Positions 19,461 through 63,808 of a stretch of DNA of 64,000 bases are shown here, one piece after another (positions within the stretch are counted from its first letter, which is position 1; each line of letters begins with the position of its first letter). The translations under genes were made by a program, and so were the position numbers. The DNA is from a virus (Duplodnaviria > Heunggongvirae > Uroviricota > Caudoviricetes), in IMG/VR virus record IMGVR_UViG_3300029610_000240. The stretch is one strand, 5' to 3'. The notes below the pieces were generated by a model. The model ran no database searches. It had not been told where the DNA came from and saw only the letters and a list, made by a program, of their open reading frames with translations.

Positions 19461-19772
19461 ATGAAACAGTATATCGGAATAAAGGTTGTTGCTGCGAGAC
19501 CAATGACAAGAGGTGACTATAATATCTTTCGAGGATGGCAGATTCCGGCAGACGAAGATCCTGCCGATGAAGGATATGTGATGAAATACGAGAATGGACA
19601 TGTGCAATGGTTGCCAAAGGATATGTTTGAGTCTGACTATAAAGAATATGACGAGAGTACCCTGCCGGCAACAGCTATTGGTATGGTAAGTTCAGATTAC
19701 AAAGAATGTTTTCAGGCAGAGTACAAGCAGCTCAGAATTCGTTATGAAAAATTGAAGAGAATGCGTCAATAA
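19461..19772 (+). CDS. hypothetical small protein
   Basis: ATG at 19461 behind GGAGAAAGGAG. Its stop codon directly abuts the IscB element's left hairpin. Confidence 0.5.
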   Translation: MKQYIGIKVVAARPMTRGDYNIFRGWQIPADEDPADEGYVMKYENGHVQWLPKDMFESDYKEYDESTLPATAIGMVSSDYKECFQAEYKQLRIRYEKLKRMRQ

Positions 19773-20044
19773 CCCCGACCTACAGTAATAACTGTTGAGG
19801 TCGGAGCTTGTAAAAGCTCATATTGACTAGCCTAAGTTCTTCGAGAACTACGTTGTTTATGTTATCACACCTGCGAATGATACCATAGTTTGCAGCCTTG
19901 TGTAGGCTCTGTAAAAGTTCTGTGAGGTAGGAACGGTCAACCTAGTATGTTCGATCACGACAAGCATTTACAACATTGGCGAAGGGTAACAAACTTTCAA
20001 AAGAAAGGGACAGCACTTGAGAGTAGCTGTCAAAGGTAAAAACT
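19773..20044 (+). ncRNA. IscB omega-RNA region
   Basis: About 270 nt of non-coding, visibly GC-richer and hairpin-rich sequence immediately 5' of iscB, which is the known position of IscB omega-RNAs. Confidence 0.65.
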
Positions 20045-21319
20045 ATGAGAGTATTTGTATTCAATATGCGTGGCAGACCATTAATGCCATGCTCACAAAG
20101 AAAAGCCAGATTACTCCTAAGGGAAAATAAGGCTATGATTTATAAATATCATCCATTTACGATTCAGCTGACTTATACAACTGGAGAAACAAAGCAGGAC
20201 TGTCATATAGGTATAGACACAGGTTCTAAATATATAGGAGCTGCTGTCAGATCAGAGGATAAGGTTTTTTGGAAAGGCGAAATCGAGCTTCGACAGGATA
20301 TCAGGTCAAATCTTGATACGAAACGTATTTATCGCAGAAGCAGACGAAATCGTAAAACAAGATACCGAAAACCAAGGTTTTTAAATCGTAAGAGAAGAGA
20401 TGAATGGCTTCCACCTAGCTTGCAAAGCAGGATAAATCATACGTTTCATTGGATTGACACATTGAGTAGTTTGGTTCCAAACCCCATTCTTCACATAGAA
20501 GTCGGTAAGTTTGATGTAGCAAAGATGATAAATCCTGAAATCCATGGAGTTGACTATCAACATGGTCAGACATATGGTTTCTTCGATGAAAGGTATTTTG
20601 TTTTTGCAAGAGATAACTACACTTGTCAGTGCTGTGGAAAGTCAAAAAATAAGATTTTGAACACACATCATATCATCTACCGCAGTAATGGCGGAACAAA
20701 CAGAGTTGATAATCTTATTACAGTTTGCACAGATTGTCATACATCGCAGAATCACAGGAAAGGTGGAATATTCTATCAATGGCAGGAGCAGCATAAAAAG
20801 GTAAAACAATACAAAGAACCGCCGTTCATGAATACCTTACGTAAGAGGATATTTGTAGCGTATCCAGATGCTGAGATCACATATGGATCTGAAACAACAC
20901 CAAAACGTAAGGCGATGAAATTGGATAAGACGCACTATAATGATGCGATTGTCATTAGTGGTATCAATGAAATTAAAGAAAATCCTGAAGAATGGTTACT
21001 GATAAAACAATTCCGCAAAAAGAAACGCTCTTTACACGAGGCTACCGCCCGTAAGGGAAGAAAAAAGCCAAACAGAAATCAGACGCGTAACAGTAAGAAT
21101 ACGCCTTATTATAAAGGATTTTATCTTAACGATAAGGTTTCAGTTTTTGGAAAGAGTGGATATATTACAGGATTTACGAGCAATGCGGCATATATAAAAG
21201 ATGAGAACAATGACTATATTACTCTGCCAAACAAAACCTATAAACAGGTCAGCATCAATAAAATGAAGTTGGAATGTCATAACAACAATTGGCAGTACAT
21301 AATAAAAAATGCTGTGTAA
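20045..21319 (+). CDS. iscB: IscB RNA-guided nuclease (PLMP, split RuvC, HNH)
   Basis: PLMP motif (RGRPLMPC), RuvC-I IGIDTGSKYIGAAV, Arg-rich bridge RRSRRNRKTRYRKPRF, RuvC-II LHIEVGKFD, HNH CQCCGK..THHIIYRSNGGTNRVDNLITVCTDCH, RuvC-III HYNDAIV. Confidence 0.9.
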   Translation: MRVFVFNMRGRPLMPCSQRKARLLLRENKAMIYKYHPFTIQLTYTTGETKQDCHIGIDTGSKYIGAAVRSEDKVFWKGEIELRQDIRSNLDTKRIYRRSRRNRKTRYRKPRFLNRKRRDEWLPPSLQSRINHTFHWIDTLSSLVPNPILHIEVGKFDVAKMINPEIHGVDYQHGQTYGFFDERYFVFARDNYTCQCCGKSKNKILNTHHIIYRSNGGTNRVDNLITVCTDCHTSQNHRKGGIFYQWQEQHKKVKQYKEPPFMNTLRKRIFVAYPDAEITYGSETTPKRKAMKLDKTHYNDAIVISGINEIKENPEEWLLIKQFRKKKRSLHEATARKGRKKPNRNQTRNSKNTPYYKGFYLNDKVSVFGKSGYITGFTSNAAYIKDENNDYITLPNKTYKQVSINKMKLECHNNNWQYIIKNAV

Positions 21320-23446: not shown

Positions 23447-23600
23447 CATCCTCTCCCATCTATAGAGGTGGGAGCTTCCCTAACCTCGGCAGGTTTGGTT
23501 CTCGTTCGATAGCACCAATGTGCTAAGCTTAAGCGAGCTAACCCCGTGTGTCCCACGGTTGTATTATGTGAAATTGTGGTTATGCAGTTACTATCCGCAT
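23447..23600 (-). ncRNA. TnpB omega-RNA region
   Basis: Sequence overlapping and extending past the 3' end of tnpB, GC-richer than its surroundings, ending at the element-end hairpin. Confidence 0.55.
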
Positions 23601-24698
23601 TCCCTCATTTCTGATATTGATCGCTGCATTTACATCTCTGTCGTGATGGATTCCACACTGCGGACAATCCCACTGCCTGAGTGCAAGATCCTTTGTTTTC
23701 GCATTCTTGTAACCACAGGCAGAACACATCTGACTGCTTGCAAAAAATCTGTCCACTTTCACAAGTTTTTTCCCTTGTTCCTCAAGTTTATACTTTAGAA
23801 AGGCTGTGAACATTCCCCATCCATTATCCGAAACGGATTTTCCCAATTTCAACGACCGAGACATTGCTTTCATATCCAGATCCTCTATACATACACAATC
23901 ATAGGCATTGGTTATCTGTCTTGACTGCTTATGCAGAAAATCTTTTCGCTGATTGGAAACTTTTTCGTGAAGTTTGGCTACCTTGATTCTCTGTTTCCTG
24001 CGATTGTTCGAACCTTTCTGCATCTTGGAAAGTCTGCGTTGTTCTCTTGCTAATCTTTTCTCTGCGTTCCGGTAATATCCTGGATATGCCGGTTCATTGC
24101 CATTACTGTCACGATATAATCCGTGCATGGAAAAGTCCAGACCTAAAAAACTGTGCATCTCCTTTTCTGGTATCTGATCTTCATACTCAAAAAGGATACT
24201 TGCATAGTATCTTCCGCCTGGTGTCTGGCTGATCGTCACTGATTTCAACCTGTATCCCTTTGGAACAGATCTGTGCTGCTTTAATCGGACTTGTCCGATC
24301 TTTGGCAGTTTCAGATACCCATCCGATATGGTGATGTTGCCATTGATACATATGGTTGAATAGCTGTTTTTATGATTCTTTTTTGATTTGAACCTTGGAA
24401 ATCCTGTTTTCGGCCGTTTGAAAAAGTTCTGAAATGCTGTATCAAGGTGTCGGAGTGATTGCTGTAAGGATATACTATCGACTTCCCGCAAAAATGCGTA
24501 TTCTTCCGTTTTCTTCATTTCAGCCATTTCTTTCGCACAGACAGTATATGTTATATTTGTCTTGTTCTTCTTATACTGCCTGATCCTTCGATTAAGCCAA
24601 TGGTTGTACACCATTCTGACACAGCCGAAAGTCCTGGCAAACAGAATCATCTGCTCATTATTGGGATATATTCTGAATTTATATGCTCTGTTTGCCAT
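23580..24698 (-). CDS. tnpB: TnpB RNA-guided nuclease (IS605 OrfB type)
   Basis: N-terminal AYKFRIYPN..Q, RuvC D (GLDFSMHG), E (CIEDLDMK), Zn finger CSACGY..CPQCG, RuvC-III HDRDVNAAINI. Confidence 0.9.
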   Translation of the reverse strand: MANRAYKFRIYPNNEQMILFARTFGCVRMVYNHWLNRRIRQYKKNKTNITYTVCAKEMAEMKKTEEYAFLREVDSISLQQSLRHLDTAFQNFFKRPKTGFPRFKSKKNHKNSYSTICINGNITISDGYLKLPKIGQVRLKQHRSVPKGYRLKSVTISQTPGGRYYASILFEYEDQIPEKEMHSFLGLDFSMHGLYRDSNGNEPAYPGYYRNAEKRLAREQRRLSKMQKGSNNRRKQRIKVAKLHEKVSNQRKDFLHKQSRQITNAYDCVCIEDLDMKAMSRSLKLGKSVSDNGWGMFTAFLKYKLEEQGKKLVKVDRFFASSQMCSACGYKNAKTKDLALRQWDCPQCGIHHDRDVNAAINIRNEGMRIVTA

Positions 24699-28087: not shown

Positions 28088-28648
28088 GTGATGATAGTGA
28101 ACAATGCACAATTAATGAGAGAATTGAAAGAATCTGAGGAAATTAAGCAAGTTATTAACCATTTAACTCAAGATATTATTGATCTGTATCATATCCAGAT
28201 ACCAATTCAGGATATTGATGAAGCAGTTAAGATGTTTGGCGGCCGCGTGGAAGAAGATCGAGAAAAATACTGTAAATATTGCGATTTTATCAGCAAAGAG
28301 AGAGATTCTTTTGCAATTTATATTTCCCCATATTATAAATCTGAACGGAGAAAAATGATTATTGCTCAACAGTTAGGTCATTTGTTCTTGCATATGGGGT
28401 ATCAAACGAATCATGATCTTTGGAATCATCAAAAAGAAGGGCGGTTCCAAGAGAAGAACGATCCTGAACAGGCACGGCAGGCAAATAGTTTTGCATTTGC
28501 ATTGCTTATGCCGGAAAAAGAGTATCGAAAAATGATTGATCTTAATTCCGAAGGATTGCTAGTACAAACGAAAAATATTGCAGAGTATTTTGGAGTATCC
28601 CTGGCTGCTGCCGCTCAAAGAGGTAGAGGACTTAATATTTTAACATAA
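28088..28648 (+). CDS. ImmA/IrrE-like protein with degenerate metalloprotease motif
   Basis: IAQQLGHLFLH occupies the place of the family HExxH (aHELGHlllH). The trailing AFALLMPEKEY is typical of ImmA/IrrE. Confidence 0.5.
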   Translation: MMIVNNAQLMRELKESEEIKQVINHLTQDIIDLYHIQIPIQDIDEAVKMFGGRVEEDREKYCKYCDFISKERDSFAIYISPYYKSERRKMIIAQQLGHLFLHMGYQTNHDLWNHQKEGRFQEKNDPEQARQANSFAFALLMPEKEYRKMIDLNSEGLLVQTKNIAEYFGVSLAAAAQRGRGLNILT

Positions 28649-28698
28649 TACTAGCAGAAAAACTCCGTTTGTAAAACGTAAAAAGGAGAATCGTATTT

Positions 28699-28992
28699 AT
28701 GAGTGAATTCATTAAAACATTATTTGAAGAAAAAGAAAAGCTTGACGAAATATGCCATATTGAAGAGCAACAACGAAAGAAAATCCAGAAACATCTGGAT
28801 ACATTAACTGATGATCAGGTTAGGGAAATGTCATTTGAGGATAAAGTATTATTAAAAGAAAAATATGGATTTTTTATTGATACTAAATTAGTCAATCTTT
28901 TACATAGAGAAATCAAAAATGGATTAATTAAAGCAAAAGGACCTGCCATTCATTATCCTTTCTTGAAAGGACTTGTTTTTTTAACTGAATAA
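28699..28992 (+). CDS. hypothetical protein
   Basis: 97-aa ORF with RBS AAAGGAGAA. Confidence 0.5.
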   Translation: MSEFIKTLFEEKEKLDEICHIEEQQRKKIQKHLDTLTDDQVREMSFEDKVLLKEKYGFFIDTKLVNLLHREIKNGLIKAKGPAIHYPFLKGLVFLTE

Positions 28993-29015
28993 TCTGGTGC
29001 TAATTGATCCATCTG

Positions 29016-29215
29016 TCCGGTGTAAAGTGAGCCACTTCATTTACAATTGTTTTTTCTACAGCTAGGGTATGAGATTGAACACATCTTATAAAGCCTGCTA
29101 TCGCACCGCTGTGGCGGCAAGGGCTTGACAAGATATGTCCACTCTCATAAATAGCACCTAAGCAAAATCAAAGTGGATTAATGTTAGCCGGAATACCGGC
29201 TCACTCAACACCGGA
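29016..29215 (+). other. about 200-bp GC-richer element with nested inverted repeats (structured RNA or MITE-like)
   Basis: TCCGGTGTAAAGTGAGCC (29016..29033) versus GGCTCACTCAACACCGGA (29198..29215) pairs at 16 of 18. CCACTT pairs AAGTGG. Inner arms 29068..29096 and 29121..29149 pair at about 24 of 29. Confidence 0.45.
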
Positions 29216-29698
29216 ATGATGGCTCTCGCGAGGCAGAATCTCCATTTAACAAAAGAACAGATTTATGATTTAGATGAATTCGTTAATCAAATGAGAAACT
29301 TAAATGCTTTAACTCAAAGTCTGGCAAACAGAAAATTGAATGACACATTAAAAGAAACGGCAGAATATGAGAACATAGAATATAAAGAAATGACATTAAC
29401 AGATGAAAAATGGAAGCAGATTGTTGATTTACTTGTACAGCATAAGATTGGAAAATGTATGTTGCATATAGCTGTTAATGACTGTGGCGATACATGTTGG
29501 ATTGATCGCAAACAATATGAGAAAGTAAAATCTGGAAAAGCTTCCGAAGACGAAAAAGAAGAATTGTATGATCAAATTTGGGGTAATACCTGTGGATATT
29601 GTGAAATATCTACAAATTGTCAAGATTTAGAATATTGTAATTTTATGAAACAAATTAAGATTTGTGGTTTTTCCTTCATAAAAAATGATGTCAATTAG
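29216..29698 (+). CDS. hypothetical Cys-rich protein (start uncertain)
   Basis: 160-aa ORF. The first codons overlap the right arm of the structured element. Confidence 0.4.
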   Translation: MMALARQNLHLTKEQIYDLDEFVNQMRNLNALTQSLANRKLNDTLKETAEYENIEYKEMTLTDEKWKQIVDLLVQHKIGKCMLHIAVNDCGDTCWIDRKQYEKVKSGKASEDEKEELYDQIWGNTCGYCEISTNCQDLEYCNFMKQIKICGFSFIKNDVN

Positions 29699-32804: not shown

Positions 32805-32872
32805 GTTACATAATGCGTAAGAATAAGAATGTATCGAATAAGTCTATATAAGTAGAATCTACCAGGTGGTAG
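32805..32872 (+). ncRNA. tracrRNA-like scaffold A
   Basis: Anti-repeat GTTACATAATGCGTAAGAAT pairs with ATATGTAAC of the repeat. Nexus AAGAATGTATCGAAT. Hairpins TCTA/TAGA and CTACC-AGG-TGGTAG (32859..32872). Confidence 0.65.
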
Positions 32873-32904
32873 AAAATATTAAAACTAACAGGAGATAATA
32901 TTTC

Positions 32905-36277: not shown

Positions 36278-36356
36278 TCAAATTATTTTGCACGGTGCGT
36301 AAAAATAAGAAATTATCGAATAGGCTCGTTAAAACGAGAGCTGCCGTGTGGCAGTA
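36278..36356 (+). ncRNA. tracrRNA-like scaffold B
   Basis: TCAAATTATT linker. Anti-repeat TTGCACGGTGCGTAAAAAT pairs with ACCGTGTAA. Nexus AAGAAATTATCGAAT. Hairpins CTCGT-TAAA-ACGAG and CTGCC-GTGT-GGCAG. Confidence 0.75.
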
Positions 36357-36499
36357 AATCTAAGCTACATCAATTTCAAGATTATAATTTGGGAGGAGAA
36401 AATGTTTGGGAAAATTAATGTTTTTTATTTATTGTTGGCTATATATTTGTATTATTTGTTATATTCTTGCAGCCAAGAACAAGAAAGAAGGTGTAGTGT

Positions 36500-46126: not shown

Positions 46127-49100
46127 GTGCAGAATGGATTTTTAGGAATAACTGTTAGTAGTGAACAGGTTGGTTGGGCAGTTACAAATCCCAAATATGA
46201 GTTAGAACGTGCATCTCGAAAAGATTTATGGGGTGTAAGGCTTTTTGATAAAGCAGAAACAGCGGAAGATCGAAGAATGTTCCGTACAAACAGACGATTA
46301 AATCAGAGAAAAAAGAACAGAATACATTATCTTAGAGATATTTTCCATGAGGAAGTAAATCAAAAAGATCCTAACTTTTTTCAGCAATTAGATGAAAGCA
46401 ATTTCTGTGAAGATGATCGTACTGTAGAGTTTAATTTTGATACTAATCTTTATAAGAATCAGTTTCCAACAGTGTATCATTTAAGAAAATATCTAATGGA
46501 AACAAAAGATAAACCAGATATTCGTCTGGTATACTTAGCTTTTTCAAAATTTATGAAAAATCGAGGACATTTCTTATACAAAGGAAATCTTGGAGAGGTT
46601 ATGGACTTTGAAAATTCCATGAAAGGCTTTTGTGAAAGTTTAGAGAAATTTAATATTGACTTCCCTACATTATCAGATGAACAGGTAAAAGAAGTCCGAG
46701 ATATCTTATGTGATCATAAAATTGCTAAAACTGTGAAAAAGAAAAACATCATTACTATTACAAAAGTAAAAAGTAAGACAGCAAAAGCATGGATTGGACT
46801 GTTTTGTGGTTGCAGCGTTCCTGTTAAAGTATTATTTCAGGATATCGATGAAGAAATTGTAACGGATCCAGAAAAAATCTCATTTGAAGATGCTTCTTAT
46901 GATGATTGTATTGCAAATATTGAAAAGGGTGTCGGTATTTATTATGAAGCTATTGTTTCTGCAAAGATGCTTTTTGACTGGTCTATCCTGAATGAAATTT
47001 TAGGTGACCATCAGTTATTAAGTGATGCAATGATCGCAGAATACAATAAGCATCATGATGATTTAAAGCGTTTACAGAAGATCATTAAAGGAACTGGCAG
47101 TAGAGAATTATATCAGGATATCTTTATTAATGATGTTTCTGGAAATTATGTATGCTACGTTGGTCATGCAAAAACAATGAGTAGTGCAGATCAGAAACAG
47201 TTTTATACATTTTTAAAAAATCGATTAAAAAATGTGAATGGTATTTCATCAGAAGATGCAGAATGGATTGATACAGAGATTAAAAACGGTACTTTACTAC
47301 CAAAACAGACAAAACGTGATAACAGTGTTATTCCGCATCAATTACAGTTAAGGGAATTTGAATTAATTCTTGATAACATGCAGGAAATGTATCCATTCTT
47401 AAAAGAAAACAGAGAAAAATTATTAAAAATCTTCAATTTCGTTATTCCTTATTATGTAGGTCCGCTAAAGGGCGTTGTAAGAAAAGGAGAGAGTACAAAC
47501 TGGATGGTGCCTAAAAAAGATGGTGTGATTCATCCATGGAATTTCGATGAAATGGTAGACAAAGAAGCGTCTGCGGAATGTTTTATTTCCCGAATGACAG
47601 GAAATTGTAGTTATTTATTTAATGAAAAAGTTCTTCCAAAGAATTCTCTTCTTTATGAGACATTTGAGGTATTAAATGAGCTAAATCCATTAAAGATCAA
47701 TGGAGAACCTATCAGCGTGGAATTAAAACAGAGAATTTATGAACAGCTTTTCTTGACAGGGAAAAAAGTTACAAAAAAATCTCTGACAAAATATCTTATC
47801 AAGAATGGCTATGACAAAGATATTGAATTATCAGGTATTGATAATGAATTTCACAGCAATCTAAAATCTCATATTGATTTTGAGGATTACGATAATCTAT
47901 CTGATGAAGAAGTTGAACAGATTATTCTTAGAATTACAGTATTTGAAGATAAGCAGCTGTTAAAAGATTATTTAAATCGCGAGTTTGTAAAGCTCTCTGA
48001 GGATGAGAGAAAACAGATTTGCTCATTATCTTATAAAGGATGGGGAAACTTATCAGAAATGCTATTAAACGGTATTACTGTAACAGATTCCAATGGTGTA
48101 GAAGTTTCTGTAATGGATATGCTGTGGAATACAAACTTAAATCTGATGCAGATCTTAAGTAAGAAATATGGATATAAAGCAGAAATCGAACATTACAATA
48201 AAGAACATGAAAAAACCATTTATAATCGTGAAGATTTGATGGATTATTTAAATATTCCACCGGCTCAGCGTAGGAAGGTAAATCAGCTGATTACGATAGT
48301 AAAATCTCTCAAAAAGACATATGGAGTTCCAAATAAGATTTTCTTCAAAATAAGCAGAGAACATCAGGATGATCCAAAGAGAACTTCATCCAGAAAAGAA
48401 CAGCTAAAATATTTATACAAATCCTTAAAATCAGAAGATGAAAAACATCTTATGAAAGAGCTTGATGAATTGAACGATCATGAATTATCCAATGATAAAG
48501 TTTATCTTTATTTTCTACAGAAAGGACGCTGCATTTATTCTGGCAAGAAATTAAATCTTTCAAGATTAAGAAAATCTAATTATCAGAATGATATTGACTA
48601 CATTTATCCATTATCTGCAGTAAATGATCGTTCTATGAATAATAAGGTATTAACGGGAATCCAGGAGAATCGAGCAGACAAGTATACCTATTTTCCAGTT
48701 GATTCAGAAATTCAGAAAAAAATGAAGGGATTTTGGATGGAACTGGTTCTGCAGGGATTTATGACAAAGGAGAAATACTTCCGATTATCCAGAGAAAATG
48801 ATTTTTCAAAGAGCGAACTTGTTAGCTTTATTGAACGTGAAATTTCAGATAATCAGCAAAGTGGAAGAATGATTGCTTCTGTATTACAGTATTATTTCCC
48901 TGAATCAAAGATTGTATTTGTAAAAGAAAAGCTGATTTCTTCCTTTAAGAGGGATTTCCATTTAATTAGTAGTTATGGTCACAATCATTTACAAGCTGCA
49001 AAAGATGCTTATATTACGATTGTAGTTGGAAATGTATATCATACAAAATTTACAATGGACCCAGCAATCTATTTTAAGAATCATAAGAGAAAAGATTATG

Positions 49101-50065
49101 ATCTGAACCGATTATTCTTAGAAAATATCAGCAGAGATGGACAGATTGCATGGGAAAGTGGTCCATATGGGTCAATTCAGACGGTTCGAAAAGAATATGC
49201 TCAAAACCATATTGCTGTTACAAAAAGAGTCGTGGAAGTAAAAGGCGGCTTATTTAAGCAGATGCCATTAAAAAAAGGACATGGCGAATATCCATTAAAA
49301 ACCAATGATCCTAGATTTGGCAATATCGCACAGTATGGAGGGTATACGAATGTCACAGGTTCCTATTTTGTATTAGTAGAATCAATGGAGAAAGGGAAAA
49401 AACGTATTTCTTTAGAATATGTTCCAGTATATCTTCATGAGCGTTTAGAGGATGATCCTGGACATAAACTGTTAAAAGAATATCTGGTTGATCACAGAAA
49501 ACTTAATCATCCAAAGATTTTACTTGCAAAAGTAAGAAAAAACTCATTACTTAAGATTGACGGTTTTTATTATCGTTTAAATGGTCGAAGTGGAAATGCT
49601 CTTATCCTTACAAATGCAGTGGAATTGATCATGGATGACTGGCAGACAAAAACAGCAAACAAGATTTCTGGATACATGAAACGCAGAGCTATTGATAAGA
49701 AAGCAAGGGTTTATCAAAATGAATTCCATATTCAGGAATTAGAACAGCTTTATGATTTTTATTTAGATAAATTAGAGAATGGTGTTTATAAAAATCGTAA
49801 GAATAATCAGGCTGAATTAATTCACAACGAAAAAGAACAGTTTATGGAACTCAAGACAGAAGATCAGTGTGTATTATTGACTGAGATTAAAAAGCTTTTT
49901 GTATGTTCTCCAATGCAGGCAGACCTTACATTGATTGGTGGCAGCAAACACACAGGAATGATTGCTATGTCAAGCAATGTTACAAAAGCAGATTTTGCAG
50001 TCATTGCGGAAGATCCTTTAGGACTTAGAAACAAAGTAATTTATTCTCATAAAGGTGAGAAGTAA
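46127..50065 (+). CDS. cas9: Cas9 homologue (type II-A-like size) with substituted RuvC and HNH catalytic residues
   Basis: GTG start 7 nt after AAGGAGGA. Conserved: bridge helix RRMFRTNRRLNQRKKNRIHYLRDIF, FPTVYHLRKYL, NRGHFLYKG, IPHQLQL, IPYYVGPL, PWNFDEMVDKEASAECFISRMT, YKGWGNLS. Catalytic columns: LGITVSSEQVGWAV (D10 is T), IFFKISREHQ (E762 is K), DIDYIYPLS (H840 is Y), QAAKDAYITIVVG (H983 is A, D986 kept). Confidence 0.9.
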   Translation: MQNGFLGITVSSEQVGWAVTNPKYELERASRKDLWGVRLFDKAETAEDRRMFRTNRRLNQRKKNRIHYLRDIFHEEVNQKDPNFFQQLDESNFCEDDRTVEFNFDTNLYKNQFPTVYHLRKYLMETKDKPDIRLVYLAFSKFMKNRGHFLYKGNLGEVMDFENSMKGFCESLEKFNIDFPTLSDEQVKEVRDILCDHKIAKTVKKKNIITITKVKSKTAKAWIGLFCGCSVPVKVLFQDIDEEIVTDPEKISFEDASYDDCIANIEKGVGIYYEAIVSAKMLFDWSILNEILGDHQLLSDAMIAEYNKHHDDLKRLQKIIKGTGSRELYQDIFINDVSGNYVCYVGHAKTMSSADQKQFYTFLKNRLKNVNGISSEDAEWIDTEIKNGTLLPKQTKRDNSVIPHQLQLREFELILDNMQEMYPFLKENREKLLKIFNFVIPYYVGPLKGVVRKGESTNWMVPKKDGVIHPWNFDEMVDKEASAECFISRMTGNCSYLFNEKVLPKNSLLYETFEVLNELNPLKINGEPISVELKQRIYEQLFLTGKKVTKKSLTKYLIKNGYDKDIELSGIDNEFHSNLKSHIDFEDYDNLSDEEVEQIILRITVFEDKQLLKDYLNREFVKLSEDERKQICSLSYKGWGNLSEMLLNGITVTDSNGVEVSVMDMLWNTNLNLMQILSKKYGYKAEIEHYNKEHEKTIYNREDLMDYLNIPPAQRRKVNQLITIVKSLKKTYGVPNKIFFKISREHQDDPKRTSSRKEQLKYLYKSLKSEDEKHLMKELDELNDHELSNDKVYLYFLQKGRCIYSGKKLNLSRLRKSNYQNDIDYIYPLSAVNDRSMNNKVLTGIQENRADKYTYFPVDSEIQKKMKGFWMELVLQGFMTKEKYFRLSRENDFSKSELVSFIEREISDNQQSGRMIASVLQYYFPESKIVFVKEKLISSFKRDFHLISSYGHNHLQAAKDAYITIVVGNVYHTKFTMDPAIYFKNHKRKDYDLNRLFLENISRDGQIAWESGPYGSIQTVRKEYAQNHIAVTKRVVEVKGGLFKQMPLKKGHGEYPLKTNDPRFGNIAQYGGYTNVTGSYFVLVESMEKGKKRISLEYVPVYLHERLEDDPGHKLLKEYLVDHRKLNHPKILLAKVRKNSLLKIDGFYYRLNGRSGNALILTNAVELIMDDWQTKTANKISGYMKRRAIDKKARVYQNEFHIQELEQLYDFYLDKLENGVYKNRKNNQAELIHNEKEQFMELKTEDQCVLLTEIKKLFVCSPMQADLTLIGGSKHTGMIAMSSNVTKADFAVIAEDPLGLRNKVIYSHKGEK

Positions 50066-50259: not shown

Positions 50260-50336
50260 TTCAAATTATTTATACAGTACGTGAAAATAAGAAATTATCG
50301 AATAAACTCGTTTAGACGAGAACTGCTAGAGGCAGT
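50260..50336 (+). ncRNA. tracrRNA-like scaffold C
   Basis: Anti-repeat TTTATACAGTACGTGAAAAT gives a 10-bp perfect pairing with ACTGTATAAA. Nexus AAGAAATTATCGAAT. Hairpins CTCGT-TTAG-ACGAG and CTGC-TAGAG-GCAG (50323..50335). Confidence 0.8.
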
Positions 50337-50352
50337 AATTGCAGAAAATGTC

Positions 50353-51117: not shown

Positions 51118-51193
51118 TCAAAGTAATTGCATGGCGTGTAAAAATAAGAATTTATCGAAATAATTTGCTCCGGCGAAATCTGCAAGATGCAGA
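51118..51193 (+). ncRNA. tracrRNA-like scaffold D
   Basis: TCAAAGTAA linker. Anti-repeat TTGCATGGCGTGTAAAAAT pairs with CTATGTAA through two G:U. Nexus AAGAATTTATCGAAAT. Hairpins TTTGC-TCCG-GCGAA and TCTGC-AAGA-TGCAGA. Confidence 0.75.
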
Positions 51194-51197
51194 AATC

Positions 51198-51445: not shown

Positions 51446-51528
51446 GTCAAATAGATTCTATACAATGCGTGAAAATAAGAAACTTATCGAACAAACCTGT
51501 GTAGGAAACAGGAACTGCCGAGGGCAGT
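51446..51528 (+). ncRNA. tracrRNA-like scaffold E
   Basis: GTCAAATAGAT linker, anti-repeat TCTATACAATGCGTGAAAAT, nexus AAGAAACTTATCGAAC. Hairpins CCTGT-GTAGGAA-ACAGG and CTGCC-GAG-GGCAG (51515..51527). Confidence 0.75.
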
Positions 51529-51823
51529 AAAAATAAAAAGCATATTTTTATTATGTTTTATTTTATGATGAAGAGGTGGATGATGGTTCTATCTCTGTTT
51601 TTGAGAAAATGGATGCATTGCAAAATGCAACAATCTTAGAAGTACAAATACATATTGATGACTTAAAAGATAAATTGGAAGAAGTAAAATTTACTCTTAA
51701 AATATCAGGTTTGTATTTGAAGAAGATAATTTTATGGATTCTTATTATAAATCTTATACGTTACCGATTGTATATCACAAAAACTATTTATTAAGTATTA
51801 ACAATGATAAGGAATAACAATAA

Positions 51824-53965: not shown

Positions 53966-54043
53966 TTAAAAGCAGATTACATGGTGTGTCAAAATAAGAA
54001 CTTATCGAATAGATCTATATAAATGGAATCTGCCAGGTGGCAG
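53966..54043 (+). ncRNA. tracrRNA-like scaffold F
   Basis: Anti-repeat TTACATGGTGTGTCAAAAT gives a 9-bp perfect pairing with ACCATGTAA. Nexus AAGAACTTATCGAAT. Hairpin 2 CTGCC-AGGT-GGCAG (54030..54043). Hairpin 1 is weak and resembles that of scaffold A. Confidence 0.75.
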
Positions 54044-54053
54044 AAAAAAACTG

Positions 54054-55580: not shown

Positions 55581-55658
55581 TTATCTGTTTCATGGATTGT
55601 GTAAAAATAAGCAAATTAGCGAATATGCTCGTTGAAACGAGAGCTGTTAGATAACAGC
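55581..55658 (+). ncRNA. tracrRNA-like scaffold G
   Basis: TTATCTGTTT pairs perfectly with AAACAGATAA across a 10-nt loop. GATTGTGTAAAAAT, nexus variant AAGCAAATTAGCGAAT. Hairpins CTCGT-TGAA-ACGAG and GCTGTTA-GA-TAACAGC. Confidence 0.6.
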
Positions 55659-55710
55659 TAAAAATGTAACTATATAAATTAATTTGTAAATTATAGGGAG
55701 GACTATTTTA

Positions 55711-56249: not shown

Positions 56250-56325
56250 TCAAATAAGCAGACTGCGTAAAAATAAGAATTTTATCGATATTGCTCGTGT
56301 AGTCGAGAACTGCCAAGTGGCAGCA
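56250..56325 (+). ncRNA. tracrRNA-like scaffold H
   Basis: TCAAATAAG linker, anti-repeat CAGACTGCGTAAAAAT, nexus AAGAATTTTATCGAT. Hairpins CTCG-TGTAGT-CGAG and CTGCC-AAGT-GGCAG (56310..56323). The next gene's RBS follows 18 nt later. Confidence 0.75.
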
Positions 56326-56352
56326 ACATTTATAATAAAAAGGAGGAATTAT

Positions 56353-57769: not shown

Positions 57770-59011
57770 TTATTTTATTTTCATGATCTCGGCCATTAGC
57801 CACTCTGGTTTTCGTTTTGTGTAAGTAGCTTCTGTGATATCGTTGATCTTGTGACCCATCATATATTTTAATGCATATTCATCTACTTTATCTCTTTTTG
57901 CCATCGTGGAAAACTGAATCCTTGGATCATGAGCTCTGTGATCTGGATTGAGCTCTAATTTCTTAACAATCTTTTCGAATCGATGTCTATATTTATCATA
58001 CGTCATTTTTAAGCTACTTCGGTGTGTTTTTGTATCAGTGCAGTTGATTAAATAATCACTTCCAAGATTTATTGCTTCCTGGTATCGATGCTTGACTAGA
58101 TCACGAATCCGTGGATGGATTGGAACCAAGCGATCTTTACCTGCGTCAGTCTTCATACCGCCGATAAAAAACCAATTTTCCAGATCTACATTTTTTAATT
58201 CAATTAGACCCAATTCTTGTGGTCGCCATCCAGAGTAGCATTGGATCAGAATCACATCCACATAATCAGTATCATACAAATGATCCCATAATTTTTTTAT
58301 TTCTTCATCCGTAAAATCAATATGGTCCTTCTTCGCTTCTTTAACATCTTTAATAACATCATCAGACAAATTAAAGGTCCTTGCATAATTCTTGTCTACT
58401 AATTCATACTCTAGCGCATAATCCAACATTAAGTTGAATAGAGATTTTATCTTTGTCTTTGTAGTAGGAGATGCGTGTTTTTCTTTACCATCGACTACAT
58501 ACGTTCCATCTTCCATACAACCTTTAATATGTCGGGCACGTAAATCTTTTGCACGCATATCATAAACAGCAGAGCAGTAGTTCCAGGCAGATTTAATTGT
58601 ACGTTCACTTGAAGGACTTGACAGGGATTCAAAATATTTATCAGTCCACTTTTCGTATAATTGCTCGACTGTCAGATCAGAGTCAAGATCATACGGATTT
58701 TTATGATATTCAAGTAATGCAGCGTAAGCATCATTATAGGTTTTGAAATATGTTTCTGGTTTCAATGATTTATAAATAGGTTTTCCATAAAAATTTTTTC
58801 CAACACAGACTAATGCACGAAAAGGCTTTCTAAGATTTTGATTTTTTAATTCGGATATAGTGCCAAATCCATTTGGAAGACGTTTTCGTTTATTAGTTTT
58901 TCTTTGTTGTTGTTTAATAACTTTTGTATCTAGAGGATAACCGCAGTGAGGACAAGTTATTGCCTTATCACTTACCTGCAATTGACATTCTGGACATTTG
59001 ATCAGTGCCAT
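57770..59011 (-). CDS. tyrosine recombinase/integrase with N-terminal zinc ribbon
   Basis: CPECQ..CPHCG at the N-terminus. C-terminal catalytic pattern RAHDPRIQF..MMGHKINDITEATYTKR (R..HxxR..Y). Confidence 0.85.
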   Translation of the reverse strand: MALIKCPECQLQVSDKAITCPHCGYPLDTKVIKQQQRKTNKRKRLPNGFGTISELKNQNLRKPFRALVCVGKNFYGKPIYKSLKPETYFKTYNDAYAALLEYHKNPYDLDSDLTVEQLYEKWTDKYFESLSSPSSERTIKSAWNYCSAVYDMRAKDLRARHIKGCMEDGTYVVDGKEKHASPTTKTKIKSLFNLMLDYALEYELVDKNYARTFNLSDDVIKDVKEAKKDHIDFTDEEIKKLWDHLYDTDYVDVILIQCYSGWRPQELGLIELKNVDLENWFFIGGMKTDAGKDRLVPIHPRIRDLVKHRYQEAINLGSDYLINCTDTKTHRSSLKMTYDKYRHRFEKIVKKLELNPDHRAHDPRIQFSTMAKRDKVDEYALKYMMGHKINDITEATYTKRKPEWLMAEIMKIK

Positions 59012-60912: not shown

Positions 60913-60935
60913 TATGAAGAAAAAATCAAAGGCTC

Positions 60936-60966
60936 TTGACTTGGAGTTAACTTCAAGTAGTATACT
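60936..60966 (+). promoter_or_regulatory. MerR-type promoter with 19-bp spacer and dyad operator
   Basis: TTGACT, 19 nt, TATACT. The spacer carries the near-palindrome ACTTGGAGTTAACTTCAAGT (60939..60958). Confidence 0.65.
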
Positions 60967-60988
60967 AATCGAAACAGGAGGTAAAAAG

Positions 60989-61486
60989 ATGAAGAAATTA
61001 CTGATTATATATTATTCATGGTCAAATGGAAACACGGAAAGAATTGCAAAAATGCTGCAGAGTGAGACTGATAGCGATATTCTAAAAATAGATACCGTAG
61101 TTCCATATTCTGGCAGTTATGATGATGTGGTAAATCAGGGACAGAATGAAGTGCAGCGCGGATACGAACCTGAAATTAAACCGCTGGATATCAATATTGC
61201 AGATTATGATGTCATCGCAGTTGGGACACCTACATGGTGGTACACAATGGCTCCGGCTGTAAAAACATTTCTGCACCAACAGGATTTTACCGGAAAGACA
61301 GTAGTACCTTTTATGACAAATGGTGGCTGGCCAGGGCATGTAATAAAGGATATGAAAGTAGCCTGCAAAGGCGCAAATGTGGTTTGCGATATGCAGATAC
61401 AGTTTGATTCTACAGGTGGAAGTAATATGGAGACACCTCAGGAACAAATTAATGAATGGATACAGAGTGTGAAAAATCTTCTTTAA
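60989..61486 (+). CDS. flavodoxin-like protein
   Basis: ATG behind AGGAGGT. KKLLIIYYSWSNGNTERIA and GTPTWWYTMAPAV are the flavodoxin_4 pattern. Confidence 0.75.
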   Translation: MKKLLIIYYSWSNGNTERIAKMLQSETDSDILKIDTVVPYSGSYDDVVNQGQNEVQRGYEPEIKPLDINIADYDVIAVGTPTWWYTMAPAVKTFLHQQDFTGKTVVPFMTNGGWPGHVIKDMKVACKGANVVCDMQIQFDSTGGSNMETPQEQINEWIQSVKNLL

Positions 61487-61502
61487 ATTGTGGAGGAAGA
61501 AT

Positions 61503-61886
61503 ATGACAATAAAAGAAGTGTCAGAAAAATATGGTATTTCACAGGATACCCTTCGTTATTATGAGAGGGTTAATGTGATTCCTAAAGTTACAAGAACATC
61601 CGGAGGAATTCGGGATTACCAGGAAGAAGATCTTAGATGGGTTGAGCTTGCAGTATGCATGAGAAATGCAGGACTTCCCATAGAAAGTCTGATTGAATAT
61701 CAAAGGCTATTTAGGGCGGGAGATTCTACAATACCTGCGAGACTTGAGTTGTTGAATGAGCAGATGGATATTCTTCAGAAGCAAAAAGAGCAGATAGAGG
61801 AAACTATGGACAGGCTTTCTTATAAGATATCACGGTATGAAGAAGCAGTGAAAACAGGAAAACTGGTATGGACAAAGGAGGAATAG
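61503..61886 (+). CDS. MerR-family transcriptional regulator
   Basis: MTIKEVSEKYGISQDTLRYYERVNVIP HTH followed by a coiled-coil dimerisation helix. Confidence 0.85.
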   Translation: MTIKEVSEKYGISQDTLRYYERVNVIPKVTRTSGGIRDYQEEDLRWVELAVCMRNAGLPIESLIEYQRLFRAGDSTIPARLELLNEQMDILQKQKEQIEETMDRLSYKISRYEEAVKTGKLVWTKEE

Positions 61887-61891
61887 TACAA

Positions 61892-62398
61892 ATGGCAAAG
61901 CTGGTAGCATTTTATTCAAGAGCAGATGAAAATTATTTTGGCGGTTCCATGAAATATATTCAGATTGGCAATACTGAGAAAGCTGCAAAAATGATAGCTG
62001 ATATGACAGGAGCAGACCTTTTCAAAATCGAGCAAAAGATTCCCTATGCCGCTGATTATAATACCTGCATTGCACAGGCAAAAGAGGATAAACAGACAGG
62101 AAAACGACCAGAGATACTAAATCTGCCACAGGACATAGATCAATATGACGAGATTTATCTTGGATACCCGAATTACTGGGGAACCATGCCAATGGCTGTA
62201 TATACTTTTCTGGAAAGTTATGATTTTACAGGAAAGAAAATTCATCCATTCTGTACGCATGAAGGAAGCGGATTGTCAAATACGGAGAGTGATATTAAAA
62301 AAAGTGCAAAAGGTGCAGTGATTGAGAAAGGCATTGCGATACATGGAAGCGGCGTAGATCAAGCGAAAGATGTACTTGAAAGATGGATACAGAAATAG
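61892..62398 (+). CDS. flavodoxin-like protein
   Basis: ATG behind AAGGAGGA. YLGYPNYWGTMPMAVYTFLE. Paralogous in type to 60989..61486. Confidence 0.75.
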   Translation: MAKLVAFYSRADENYFGGSMKYIQIGNTEKAAKMIADMTGADLFKIEQKIPYAADYNTCIAQAKEDKQTGKRPEILNLPQDIDQYDEIYLGYPNYWGTMPMAVYTFLESYDFTGKKIHPFCTHEGSGLSNTESDIKKSAKGAVIEKGIAIHGSGVDQAKDVLERWIQK

Positions 62399-62964
62399 AG
62401 GTTAGAAAAATGGAATGCAAGGAAATACGTGTTGATGTAAGAACTGCGTCAATAAAAGAAAGTACAGAAGGGCAACGCCAGACAAAAATATTATTTCAGA
62501 TTAATCATACAATGCCTTTTACTGATGAATATAATCATTTATTAAAGGAATTGTTTGGAAATAACCTAGGAGATGGGAGTATGATATCACCACCGCTTAA
62601 TGGAGCATGTGTTGGAAGCGTAAAGATTGGCAGGAATGTATTTATCAATTCTAATCTTCTTGCAATGGCAAGAGGTGGAATAACGATTGAAGACAATGCT
62701 ATGATTGCTGCAAATGTACAGCTTATTTCCAATAATCATGATCCATATGATTTGTGTACTCTGACTTGTAAGCCTGTTCTGATAAGAGAATATGCCTGGG
62801 TAGGAGCTGGAGCTACGATACTTCCGGGAGTATGTATCGGAAGACACGCAATTGTGGGAGCTGGATCTGTAGTGACAAAGGATGTACCGGATTATGCAGT
62901 AGCAGTTGGAAATCCGGCAAAAGTAATAAAAATGCTTGATAAAGAAAAATTTCAGGAGGACTAA
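62383..62964 (+). CDS. hexapeptide-repeat O-acetyltransferase (maltose/galactoside acetyltransferase-like)
   Basis: Left-handed beta-helix repeats: IGRNVFINSN, ITIEDNAMIAANV, VGAGATILPGVCIGRHAIVGAGSVV. The start may be the Met at 62410. Confidence 0.75.
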   Translation: MDTEIEVRKMECKEIRVDVRTASIKESTEGQRQTKILFQINHTMPFTDEYNHLLKELFGNNLGDGSMISPPLNGACVGSVKIGRNVFINSNLLAMARGGITIEDNAMIAANVQLISNNHDPYDLCTLTCKPVLIREYAWVGAGATILPGVCIGRHAIVGAGSVVTKDVPDYAVAVGNPAKVIKMLDKEKFQED

Positions 62965-62968
62965 AAAG

Positions 62969-63808
62969 ATGGAAAATATGAAGTTGAATAACAATTTGGA
63001 ATGTCCAATGCTTGGACTAGGAACTTTTATGTTATCACCAGAGGATGCCTACACAAGTACATTAGAGGCATTAAAAATGGGATATTCCCTAATTGATACA
63101 GCAAATGCTTATGTAAATGAGCGTGCAGTTGGAAGAGCAATCAAGGATAGTGGAATTGACAGAAAAAATATATTTCTATCAACAAAAATATGGGCTAGTG
63201 AATATGAAAATGAGAATACTGTAGAAGAAACTCTAGAAAGACTTGGTGTTGATTATGTGGATTTACTTTATATACACCAGCCTGCAGGCAACTGGCTTGC
63301 CGGATACAGAATGCTTGAAAAAGCGTATAGAGAGGGCAAAGCAAAATCCATTGGTATCTCGAATTTTGAAGGAAAATATATGGAAGAGTTGGAAACAAAG
63401 TGGGAAATTGTACCTCAGTTTATTCAGGTGGAAGCACATCCATATTTCACACAGAAAGAAATGCGTGTAACTTTAGACAAATATGGAATTAAGCTTATGA
63501 GCTGGTATCCGCTGGGACATGGAGATACAGCATTAATGAATGAGTTGGTATTTGCAGGACTTGGCAAAAAATATGGAAAAACACCTGCACAGGTTATTCT
63601 CCGTTGGCATACTCAGATGGGATTTGTTGTAATTCCTGGAAGTAAAAATGCAGAACACATTAAGGACAATATGGATATCTTTGATTTTGCATTAACAGAT
63701 GAAGAAATGGAACAGATTGCAAAGCTGGACAAGAATGAAAGATATTATCACCGCACGGATGAACAGCTTGTACAGTTTGCAAACTGGAAACCAGAGTTTG
63801 AAAAATAA
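62969..63808 (+). CDS. aldo/keto reductase
   Basis: ATG behind AGGAGGA. LGLGTF, IDTANAYVNE, LSTKIW, YVDLLYIHQP and IPGSKNAEHIKDN. Confidence 0.85.
   Translation: MENMKLNNNLECPMLGLGTFMLSPEDAYTSTLEALKMGYSLIDTANAYVNERAVGRAIKDSGIDRKNIFLSTKIWASEYENENTVEETLERLGVDYVDLLYIHQPAGNWLAGYRMLEKAYREGKAKSIGISNFEGKYMEELETKWEIVPQFIQVEAHPYFTQKEMRVTLDKYGIKLMSWYPLGHGDTALMNELVFAGLGKKYGKTPAQVILRWHTQMGFVVIPGSKNAEHIKDNMDIFDFALTDEEMEQIAKLDKNERYYHRTDEQLVQFANWKPEFEK

What the first reader, a model, noticed from the sequence alone, without database searches (positions are those of the whole stretch)
29016..29215. About 200-bp GC-richer element with 18-bp terminal inverted repeats and a long imperfect inner hairpin
In an AT-rich intergenic gap, TCCGGTGTAAAGTGAGCC and GGCTCACTCAACACCGGA (16 of 18 complementary) enclose CCACTT/AAGTGG and an inner hairpin of about 29 bp (29068..29096 with 29121..29149, 5 mismatches) around a GC-rich loop. 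A closing stem plus a long apical stem recalls 6S-like or retron-msd-like RNAs. Terminal inverted repeats of this size also fit a MITE. Its right arm overlaps the annotated start of the next ORF.
Basis: seen in the sequence. Interest (0 to 1): 0.5.

Follow-up and report, generated by a model that had tools for sequence, protein, structure and literature searches.

The report
Small mobile repeat splitting a gene
The hairpin-rich stretch is a 259-bp non-coding transposable element (a MITE) that has jumped into and split a gene of unknown function on an integrated mobile element of a gut Clostridia bacterium; this is an ordinary insertion, not a new structured RNA gene.

Summary
The reported inverted repeats are real, and the region folds far better than shuffles (z -4.4 to -7.6). 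Two parts of the description need correcting.

- **Location.** The "AT-rich intergenic gap" is not intergenic. ORFs 28699-28992 and 29216-29698 are the two halves of one 244-aa gene. That gene is intact in close relatives (P0003, 96% identity, cluster of 784 sequences).
- **Size.** The element is 259 bp (28986-29244), not about 200 bp. It runs 5'-TGAATAATCT...GAATCTCCA-3'. A direct duplication, TTTAAC, flanks it, and the uninterrupted gene carries that sequence only once.
- **Mobility.** The same element, at 80-100% identity, sits at 16 unrelated sites in human-gut Clostridia/Lachnospiraceae contigs. Its ends are almost always the same. The flanking duplications differ from site to site and are usually 5 bp (range 4-6).
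- **What it lacks.** It has no ORF longer than 19 codons, no relevant Rfam match and no adjacent reverse transcriptase. Covariation beyond its inverted-repeat design is weak.

It is therefore a miniature inverted-repeat transposable element, mobilised in trans by a DDE transposase that I did not find. The ATG at 29216 lies inside the element. Interest is low.

The parts
28699..28992 (+). 5' fragment of the interrupted 244-aa gene. Native codons run to 28985. The last sense codons and the TAA stop (28990-28992) are supplied by the inserted element.
   Evidence: Residues 1-96 match the N-terminal 96 residues of the intact homologues P0003/P0022.
28980..28985 (.). Left copy of the target-site duplication, TTTAAC.
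   Evidence: The empty site reads GTTTTTTTAACAAAAG with one copy only; the window has TTTAAC on both sides of the insert.
28986..29244 (+). The 259-bp MITE-like element, 5'-TGAATAATCTGG...GCAGAATCTCCA-3' (TG...CA termini). It has no ORF longer than 19 codons.
   Evidence: blastn of the window against other loci aligns exactly 28986-29244 at 99.6-100% in L023, L033, L040, L042, L050 and L052, with unrelated flanks.
29006..29033 (.).
   Evidence: I1: 28 nt, 82% complementary to 29198-29225.
29198..29225 (.). Right arm of the long inverted repeat. Its inner part is missing in a 236-bp variant that still occurs at two different sites.
   Evidence: L051/L044/L035 and L036/L046 lack alignment columns 204-226.
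29068..29149 (.). Inner imperfect hairpin (arms 29068-29095 / 29122-29149) with a GC-rich apical stem-loop. This is the most conserved part of the family and includes TTGACA at 29125-29130.
   Evidence: No sigma-70-type promoter was called here.
29245..29250 (.). Right copy of the target-site duplication, TTTAAC.
29216..29698 (+). Chimeric ORF. The ATG and the first ~10 codons (29216-29244) come from the right end of the element and are in frame with the 3' part of the interrupted gene (native from 29245/29251 onwards).
   Evidence: MMALARQNLHLT|KEQIYDL... against intact ...GLVFLT|KEQIYDL...

Best explanation
The feature is one copy of a 259-bp non-autonomous DNA transposon (a MITE) that has inserted into a 244-aa gene of unknown function on an integrated mobile element of a gut Clostridia/Lachnospiraceae bacterium.

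Shown:
- The element has fixed ends (5'-TG...CA-3'), long imperfect terminal/subterminal inverted repeats and no coding capacity.
- It occurs at many unrelated loci, each with its own short direct duplication of target DNA.
- A precise empty site exists for the window locus.

Inferred:
- A DDE-type transposase encoded elsewhere in the host genome binds the two inverted ends.
- That enzyme makes a staggered cut, usually of 5 bp, in AT-rich target DNA and joins the 3'-CA ends. Repair of the gaps then gives the duplication.
- The TG...CA tips and the 4-6-bp duplications point to the retroviral-integrase-like group (IS3, IS481, IS21 or IS1202-like), but the partner was not identified.

The striking fold is a by-product of the inverted-repeat design rather than evidence for an RNA gene. 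The insertion truncates the gene after codon 96 (TAA at 28990). It also creates a chimeric downstream ORF that starts at an ATG inside the element, and no clear Shine-Dalgarno sequence is apparent by eye upstream of that ATG.
For: Split gene:
- Homologues of ORF 29216-29698 are mostly 243-245 aa. Their N-terminal part equals window ORF 28699-28992, joined at ...GLVFLT|KEQIYDL....

Empty site:
- L002/L003/L004, which share the neighbouring genes, read GGACTTGTTTTTTTAACAAAAGAACAG. The window has 265 extra bp there, that is the 259-bp element plus a second TTTAAC.

Other copies:
- The genome scan found 3 copies and the metagenome scan found 21 loci.
- blastn aligns positions 1-259 end to end at 80-100% identity.
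- Flank extraction gives 16 independent sites. Duplications are TAGAT, GTAAT, TTTTT, ACCAT, AATCC, TATGT, CATAA, TTAAA and TACAA (5 bp), GTGTAG and TTTAAC (6 bp), TGGA (4 bp), and a decayed TTAAG/TTTAG.

Other points:
- Only one copy is present in the window.
- Translation of the region is stop-rich.
- The nested insertion in L039 shows the element behaving as ordinary DNA: an ISL3-family IS sits inside it with its own 8-bp duplication, while L045 has the same site without the IS.
Against: - No autonomous element with the same ends was found in the window, in the 56 loci fetched, in PLSDB, in the phage collection or in IMG/VR. The transposase family and the transposition chemistry are therefore inferred only.
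- Only one matching locus per genome contig was returned, which is low for a classical MITE burst.
- The interior, especially the right half (alignment columns 127-200), is more conserved than the extreme tips in the most divergent copy, L029.
- Three stem pairs show double compensatory changes (10 of 500 shuffles reach this). Some selection on the hairpin itself cannot be excluded.
- Duplication length is not strictly constant (4-6 bp).
Confidence: 0.9

Rival explanations
1. A structured non-coding RNA gene (6S-like regulator or retron msr/msd-like RNA) located between two genes.
For: There is a strong fold on both strands (z -6.35 and -7.58), with a closing stem plus a long apical stem. A few compensatory pair changes are present.
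Against: No Rfam family matches: 6S and retron-related models are absent even at E<=10 and at gathering score over the whole window. The locus is not intergenic but sits inside a gene that is intact in relatives. The same sequence occurs at 16 unrelated sites with target duplications. No reverse transcriptase is encoded next to it. In the long arm (helix 2), 11 of 20 pairs depart from pairing only through unpaired cells, with no compensating change.
Confidence: 0.03
2. A single-stranded-DNA hairpin that works during conjugative transfer of the host element, either as an Frpo-type ssDNA promoter or as a single-strand origin. The idea rests on TTGACA in the right arm of the inner hairpin and on all neighbouring genes lying on one strand.
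For: TTGACA at 29125-29130 is conserved in most copies. The ssDNA fold has z -5.02. The window is an integrated mobile element with a unidirectional gene array and strong GC skew.
Against: No matching -10 hexamer is present, and the promoter scan calls nothing in the element. The element is absent from otherwise near-identical host elements (L002-L004). It is found in both orientations at unrelated sites that are mostly not within long ORFs. It interrupts a coding sequence here.
Confidence: 0.03
3. A self-splicing intervening sequence (small group I-like intron), so that the split gene is still expressed as one protein.
For: It interrupts a coding sequence, is highly structured, and the upstream exon would end in U.
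Against: There is no Intron_gpI or other ribozyme hit at E<=10. None of the possible 3' boundaries (29244-29250: A, T, T, T, A, A, C) is the G required at a group I 3' splice site (the rule is from established knowledge). A direct target duplication flanks the element. Reconstructed empty sites at the other 12 tested loci show no long open frame, the longest being 291 nt.
Confidence: 0.02
4. A non-autonomous IS200/IS605-type element (PATE) mobilised by a Y1 HUH transposase. This was suggested by the TnpB and IscB genes in the same window.
For: TnpB lies at 23580-24698 (-) and IscB with HEARO RNA at 19765-21319. The element also contains small local hairpins.
Against: By established knowledge, IS200/IS605 elements have no terminal inverted repeats, make no target duplication and insert 3' of a fixed tetra- or pentanucleotide. 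Here the two ends are inverted copies of each other, the flanks are duplicated, and the target sequences differ at every site.
Confidence: 0.02

Closest known systems
Bacterial MITEs in general (e.g. Correia elements of Neisseria, RUP of Streptococcus pneumoniae, bcr1 of the Bacillus cereus group; recalled from memory, not compared by sequence here)
   Same: It is 100-300 bp and non-coding. It has terminal inverted repeats that make the whole unit fold into a long imperfect hairpin, and short target-site duplications. It is scattered at unrelated, mostly AT-rich sites and occasionally disrupts genes or supplies start codons or promoters.
   Different: It has no sequence similarity to anything in Rfam, PLSDB or the phage collection. 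Its hosts are human-gut Clostridia/Lachnospiraceae. Copy number per genome appears low, and the autonomous partner is unknown.
Ends of retroviral-integrase-type DDE insertion sequences (IS3 / IS481 / IS21 / IS1202 groups)
   Same: It has 5'-TG...CA-3' termini and target duplications of 4-6 bp, mostly 5. These properties of the families are from established knowledge.
   Different: No transposase gene with these ends was found, so family assignment is an inference. ISL3 can be excluded as the mobiliser: the ISL3 copies nested in the element make 8-bp duplications and have different ends.
Tn3-derived inverted-repeat miniature elements (TIMEs)
   Same: They are about 250 bp with 5-bp target duplications (from memory).
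   Different: Tn3-family ends begin with GGGG and are about 38-bp near-perfect repeats. Here the ends begin TGAAT and the tips are imperfect.

Membership tests
MITE (non-autonomous DDE transposon) | Small size and no coding capacity | tested here: met
   259 bp. The reading frame shown is stop-rich, and the longest ATG-initiated ORF is 19 codons.
MITE (non-autonomous DDE transposon) | Terminal inverted repeats | tested here: met
   28-nt arms are 82% complementary. Weaker pairing extends to the TG...CA tips.
MITE (non-autonomous DDE transposon) | Target-site duplication that differs between copies, with an empty site available | tested here: met
   13 sites have readable duplications of 4-6 bp. 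The empty site for the window locus is in L002/L003/L004.
MITE (non-autonomous DDE transposon) | Multiple copies at unrelated loci | tested here: met
   16 independent insertion sites lie in genome and metagenome contigs. Only one copy is present in this window.
MITE (non-autonomous DDE transposon) | An autonomous IS with the same ends that supplies the transposase | tested here: inconclusive
   None was found in the window, in the fetched loci, in PLSDB, in the phage collection or in IMG/VR. The large genome and metagenome collections could not be scanned again for the termini alone.
6S RNA | Match to the 6S covariance models, as a single-copy housekeeping gene | tested here: not met
   There is no hit at E<=10. 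The element is mobile, is present at 16 unrelated sites across genomes, and is absent from sister elements.
Retron msr/msd | Adjacent reverse transcriptase gene | tested here: not met
   The neighbouring ORFs have no RT domain: they are Peptidase_M78, an HTH protein and unknowns. The flanking ORFs are the two halves of one gene.
Group I intron | Conserved catalytic core and a G at the 3' end of the intron | tested here: not met
   There is no Rfam hit, and no G lies at any possible 3' boundary, 29244-29250.
IS200/IS605-derived PATE | No inverted terminal repeats, no target duplication and a fixed target motif | tested here: not met
   Inverted ends and variable duplicated targets are present.
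Frpo-type ssDNA promoter | -35 and -10 hexamers at proper spacing within the stem, at a fixed position in the leading region | tested here: not met
   Only TTGACA is present, and the scan calls no promoter. The element is absent from the same host element in L002-L004.

The most novel reading that the evidence does not exclude
Beyond being a passive MITE, the element may carry a selected functional core. Its interior is nearly invariant (GCGGCAAGGGCTTGACAAGATAT...AGCAAAATCAAAGTGG), and the inner hairpin keeps pairing through two double changes in the most divergent copy. This core could act as an outward promoter, a small RNA or a DNA hairpin that the host or other elements use. Four of 16 copies carry an ISL3-family IS at mirror-image positions in the two arms, and two further copies lie at or next to the end of an IS110-like element. 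The element may therefore serve as a preferred landing pad for other insertion sequences.
Probability: 0.1. Interest if true: 0.4.

Novelty: new member of a known kind. Interest (0 to 1): 0.15.

Why it matters
- **Annotation.** Two "hypothetical proteins" (97 and 160 aa) separated by a "structured intergenic region" are really one 244-aa gene inactivated by a transposon. The start codon of the second ORF is transposon-derived.
- **Screening.** This is a worked example of how MITEs mimic structured-RNA candidates in fold-energy screens.
- **Family definition.** The work defines a previously unmatched MITE family of human-gut Clostridia (consensus in alignment A3). The family can be masked in RNA-discovery pipelines and used as a strain-level insertion polymorphism marker.
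- **Limits.** It does not open a new biological question on its own.

Tried and rejected
- **Rfam.** Searches at gathering score over the whole window and at E<=10 over 28600-29600 found nothing relevant.
- **ssDNA promoter or single-strand origin.** I first suspected this because of TTGACA in the stem and the one-directional gene array. I rejected it after finding the empty site and the copies elsewhere, and because the scan called no promoter.
- **blastn against plasmids and phages.** The element and its left 65 nt gave no match.
- **IMG/VR scans.** Two arm patterns and the core pattern gave zero hits. The terminal 20-mer gave three hits, all chance matches inside unrelated coding sequence.
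- **Parental IS among fetched loci.** A blastn-short search with the terminal 50 nt found only the MITE copies themselves and the 18-21-nt chance matches that the genome scan had brought in.
- **L005 insert.** I tested whether the odd 45-bp replacement at almost the same position in L005 is a remnant or junction of the element. Its similarity is no better than shuffles, 391 of 500 reaching it.
- **Covariation test.** It is weak: 3 pairs with double changes, and 96.5% of cells paired against 96.2% in shuffles. The copies are too similar for it to be informative.
- **Literature.** A search for MITEs in Lachnospiraceae returned nothing relevant.
- **Function of the split gene.** Pfam and PHROGs give no family for the intact 244-aa protein.

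Full report
**1. The observation**

The sequence features are real. The repeat finder reports outer arms 29006-29033 / 29198-29225 (28 nt, 82% complementary) and inner arms 29068-29095 / 29122-29149 (28 nt, 82%).

Region 29000-29230 folds much better than dinucleotide shuffles on both strands:
- RNA + strand: -80.1 kcal/mol, z -6.35.
- RNA - strand: -93.3 kcal/mol, z -7.58.

GC is 44% against 30-33% in the flanks. A fold this strong cannot be attributed to chance.

**2. The "gap" is an insertion inside a gene**

A protein search with the downstream ORF (29216-29698, 160 aa) returned mostly 243-245-aa homologues. Their sequences show that the N-terminal ~96 residues equal the window's upstream ORF (28699-28992). 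The join is ...PFLKGLVFLT|KEQIYDL....

P0003 (244 aa, 96% identical, a cluster of 784 sequences) lies in contigs with the same neighbouring genes: M78 peptidase upstream; a 166-aa ORF and an HTH gene downstream.

The DNA alignment of those loci with the window shows a continuous GGACTTGTTTTTTTAACAAAAGAACAG. The window has 265 extra bases at that point, bounded by TTTAAC at 28980-28985 and again at 29245-29250.

The upstream fragment therefore ends in a stop codon supplied by the insert (TAA 28990-28992). The downstream "ORF" begins at an ATG inside the insert (29216) that happens to be in frame.

**3. The insert is mobile**

- The element is single-copy in the window. It has no blastn match in PLSDB or the phage collection.
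- A scan of one genome per species with the degenerate arm pattern TCCGGTGTWRAGTGAGCC gave 27 loci. blastn shows that three carry the whole element: L023 (99.6%), L032 (88%) and L029 (80%). These are MAGs of uncultured Clostridia, Lachnobacterium and Lachnospiraceae. The remaining hits are chance 18-mers.
- In L023 the alignment covers exactly window 28986-29244. This fixes the element at 259 bp, 5'-TGAATAATCTGG...GCAGAATCTCCA-3'.
- A metagenome scan with the conserved core GCGGCAAGGGCTTKACAAGATAT gave 21 further loci, all real copies.
- Flank extraction shows 16 independent insertion sites. Each readable site has its own direct duplication:
  - 5 bp: TAGAT, GTAAT, TTTTT, ACCAT, AATCC, TATGT, CATAA, TTAAA, TACAA.
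  - 6 bp: GTGTAG, and TTTAAC in the window.
  - 4 bp: TGGA.
  - Decayed: TTAAG/TTTAG in the oldest copy.
- A 236-bp variant that lacks the inner part of the right arm is found at two different sites. It has therefore still moved, or been moved.
- When the element plus one duplication is removed in silico, only the window locus restores a long open frame (756 nt). At the other 12 sites tested the longest is 291 nt.

**4. What it is**

The element is small and non-coding. Its two ends are imperfect inverted copies of each other. It is flanked by variable short target duplications, has a known empty site, and is scattered in related genomes. This is the definition of a MITE.

Covariation analysis on 15 distinct copies adds little:
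- 96.5% of cells are paired, against 96.2% in column shuffles.
- Three pairs have double changes (10 of 500 shuffles reach this).
- Many one-sided changes simply break pairs in the long arm.

The copies are too similar for a decisive test. A slight constraint on the inner hairpin, seen as two compensatory changes in L029, cannot be excluded.

**5. How it most likely works**

The steps below are inferred, except where a call is cited.
- A DDE transposase encoded elsewhere binds the inverted ends.
- It cuts target DNA with a stagger of usually 5 bp and joins the 3'-CA ends.
- Gap repair then yields the duplication.

TG...CA tips with 4-6-bp duplications are typical of the retroviral-integrase-like IS groups (IS3, IS481, IS21, IS1202; established knowledge). 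I could not find the partner in the window, the fetched loci, PLSDB, the phage collection or IMG/VR. The window's own mobile-DNA genes are a tyrosine integrase (57770-59011), a TnpB and an IscB. None of these makes such duplications. ISL3 is also excluded as the mobiliser, because the nested ISL3 copies make 8-bp duplications and have unrelated ends.

**6. Rival readings**

- **6S-like or retron-like RNA.** No Rfam support, no RT, wrong genomic behaviour.
- **ssDNA promoter or single-strand origin.** This was my own first idea, prompted by TTGACA at 29125-29130 and the one-directional gene array. There is no -10 hexamer and no promoter call. The element is absent from the same host element elsewhere.
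- **Group I intron.** No core, no 3' G, a target duplication is present, and most copies do not lie in long ORFs.
- **IS200/IS605 PATE.** Contradicted by the inverted ends and the duplications.

**7. Consequence in this window**

The 244-aa gene has no Pfam or PHROGs family. It has a Cys-rich C-terminal half and lies just downstream of an ImmA/IrrE-type M78 peptidase on an integrated element. The gene is truncated after codon 96.

The chimeric downstream ORF has, by eye, no clear Shine-Dalgarno sequence upstream of its transposon-derived ATG. It is probably not expressed efficiently (inference). The exact 160-aa product of the filled allele is on record in three contigs, whereas the cluster of the intact protein has 784 sequences. 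The insertion is therefore recent and rare.

**8. Novelty and score**

This is a new, previously unmatched family of a very well-known kind of element. Showing that a candidate structured RNA is a MITE in a split gene is a useful clean-up, but it is not surprising. Interest is 0.15.

Noticed in passing
window 32817-32875, 36299-36357, 50281-50338, 51138-51195, 51469-51530, 53988-54046, 55601-55660, 56267-56326 (all + strand): Eight copies of the Rfam motif RAGATH-30 (64.7-78.6 bits, gathering score 59.5) lie in intergenic positions along the one-directional gene array of this integrated element. Each has an invariant GT.A.AATAAG.A..TTA.CGA box followed by two hairpins. Such a density in one element suggests a repeated regulatory signal, such as a promoter, antiterminator or processing site.
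   Followed up: partly
window 19765-19994 (+) and 20045-21319 (+): A HEARO RNA (112 bits) lies directly upstream of an RRXRR/HNH protein. This is an IscB with its omega RNA.
   Followed up: no
window 46127-50065 (+), 23580-24698 (-), 57770-59011 (-): The same integrated element carries a full-length Cas9 (REC, HNH and PI domains), a TnpB (OrfB_IS605/Cas12f-like TNB) and a tyrosine integrase near its right boundary. Flavodoxin and aldo-keto reductase genes (60914-63808) beyond the integrase may be chromosomal, but this was not tested. No CRISPR array was looked for.
   Followed up: no
L039 6655-8426; L041 below position 40; L038 below 5586; L037 up to 6428: Four of the 16 independent MITE copies carry an ISL3-family IS. 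The family is supported by Pfam DDE_Tnp_ISL3 and Zn_ribbon_ISL3 for the L039 copy; for the other three it rests on end-sequence similarity. Three sit after position 246-248 of the right arm and one after position 12 of the left arm, which are mirror-image positions in the hairpin. L039 shows the 8-bp duplication TCACGAGG, and L045 is the same locus without the IS. This looks like target preference of that IS for this MITE.
   Followed up: partly
L042 2821-3079 and L034 7121-7379: The L042 copy lies about 80 nt upstream of a gene whose N-terminus looked to me like an IS110-type transposase; this was judged by eye and not tested. In L034 a homologous end is intact (site empty), and a second, independent MITE copy lies 44 nt further out in the opposite orientation. 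These are two insertions within about 70 bp of the same sequence.
   Followed up: partly
L005 2975-3019 (homologous to window ~28978-29251): In another variant of the same host element, the gene is broken within 2 bp of the MITE insertion point. A 45-bp sequence (CCTTGCAGTGACTCCGTTTATCTACGTGGTGCTGACTGCCCTGAA) replaces TT, a net gain of 43 bp and so a frameshift. Its similarity to the MITE is not significant. Its origin is unexplained, and the contig has low coverage (3x).
   Followed up: partly
proteins P0022 and P0025 (homologues of the split gene): Other contigs encode further truncated or fused versions of the same 244-aa gene. P0022 is fused to the C-terminal part of the 194-aa downstream gene, and P0025 has foreign sequence at both ends. 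This gene appears to be lost or disrupted repeatedly.
   Followed up: no
L051/L044/L035 and L036/L046 (alignment A3 columns 204-226): A 236-bp derivative of the MITE has lost 23 bp between two CCGG repeats, namely the local hairpin AGCCGGAATACCGGCT plus the inner right arm. It is nevertheless present at two different insertion sites with their own duplications (CATAA, GTGTAG). That part is therefore not needed for mobility.
   Followed up: partly
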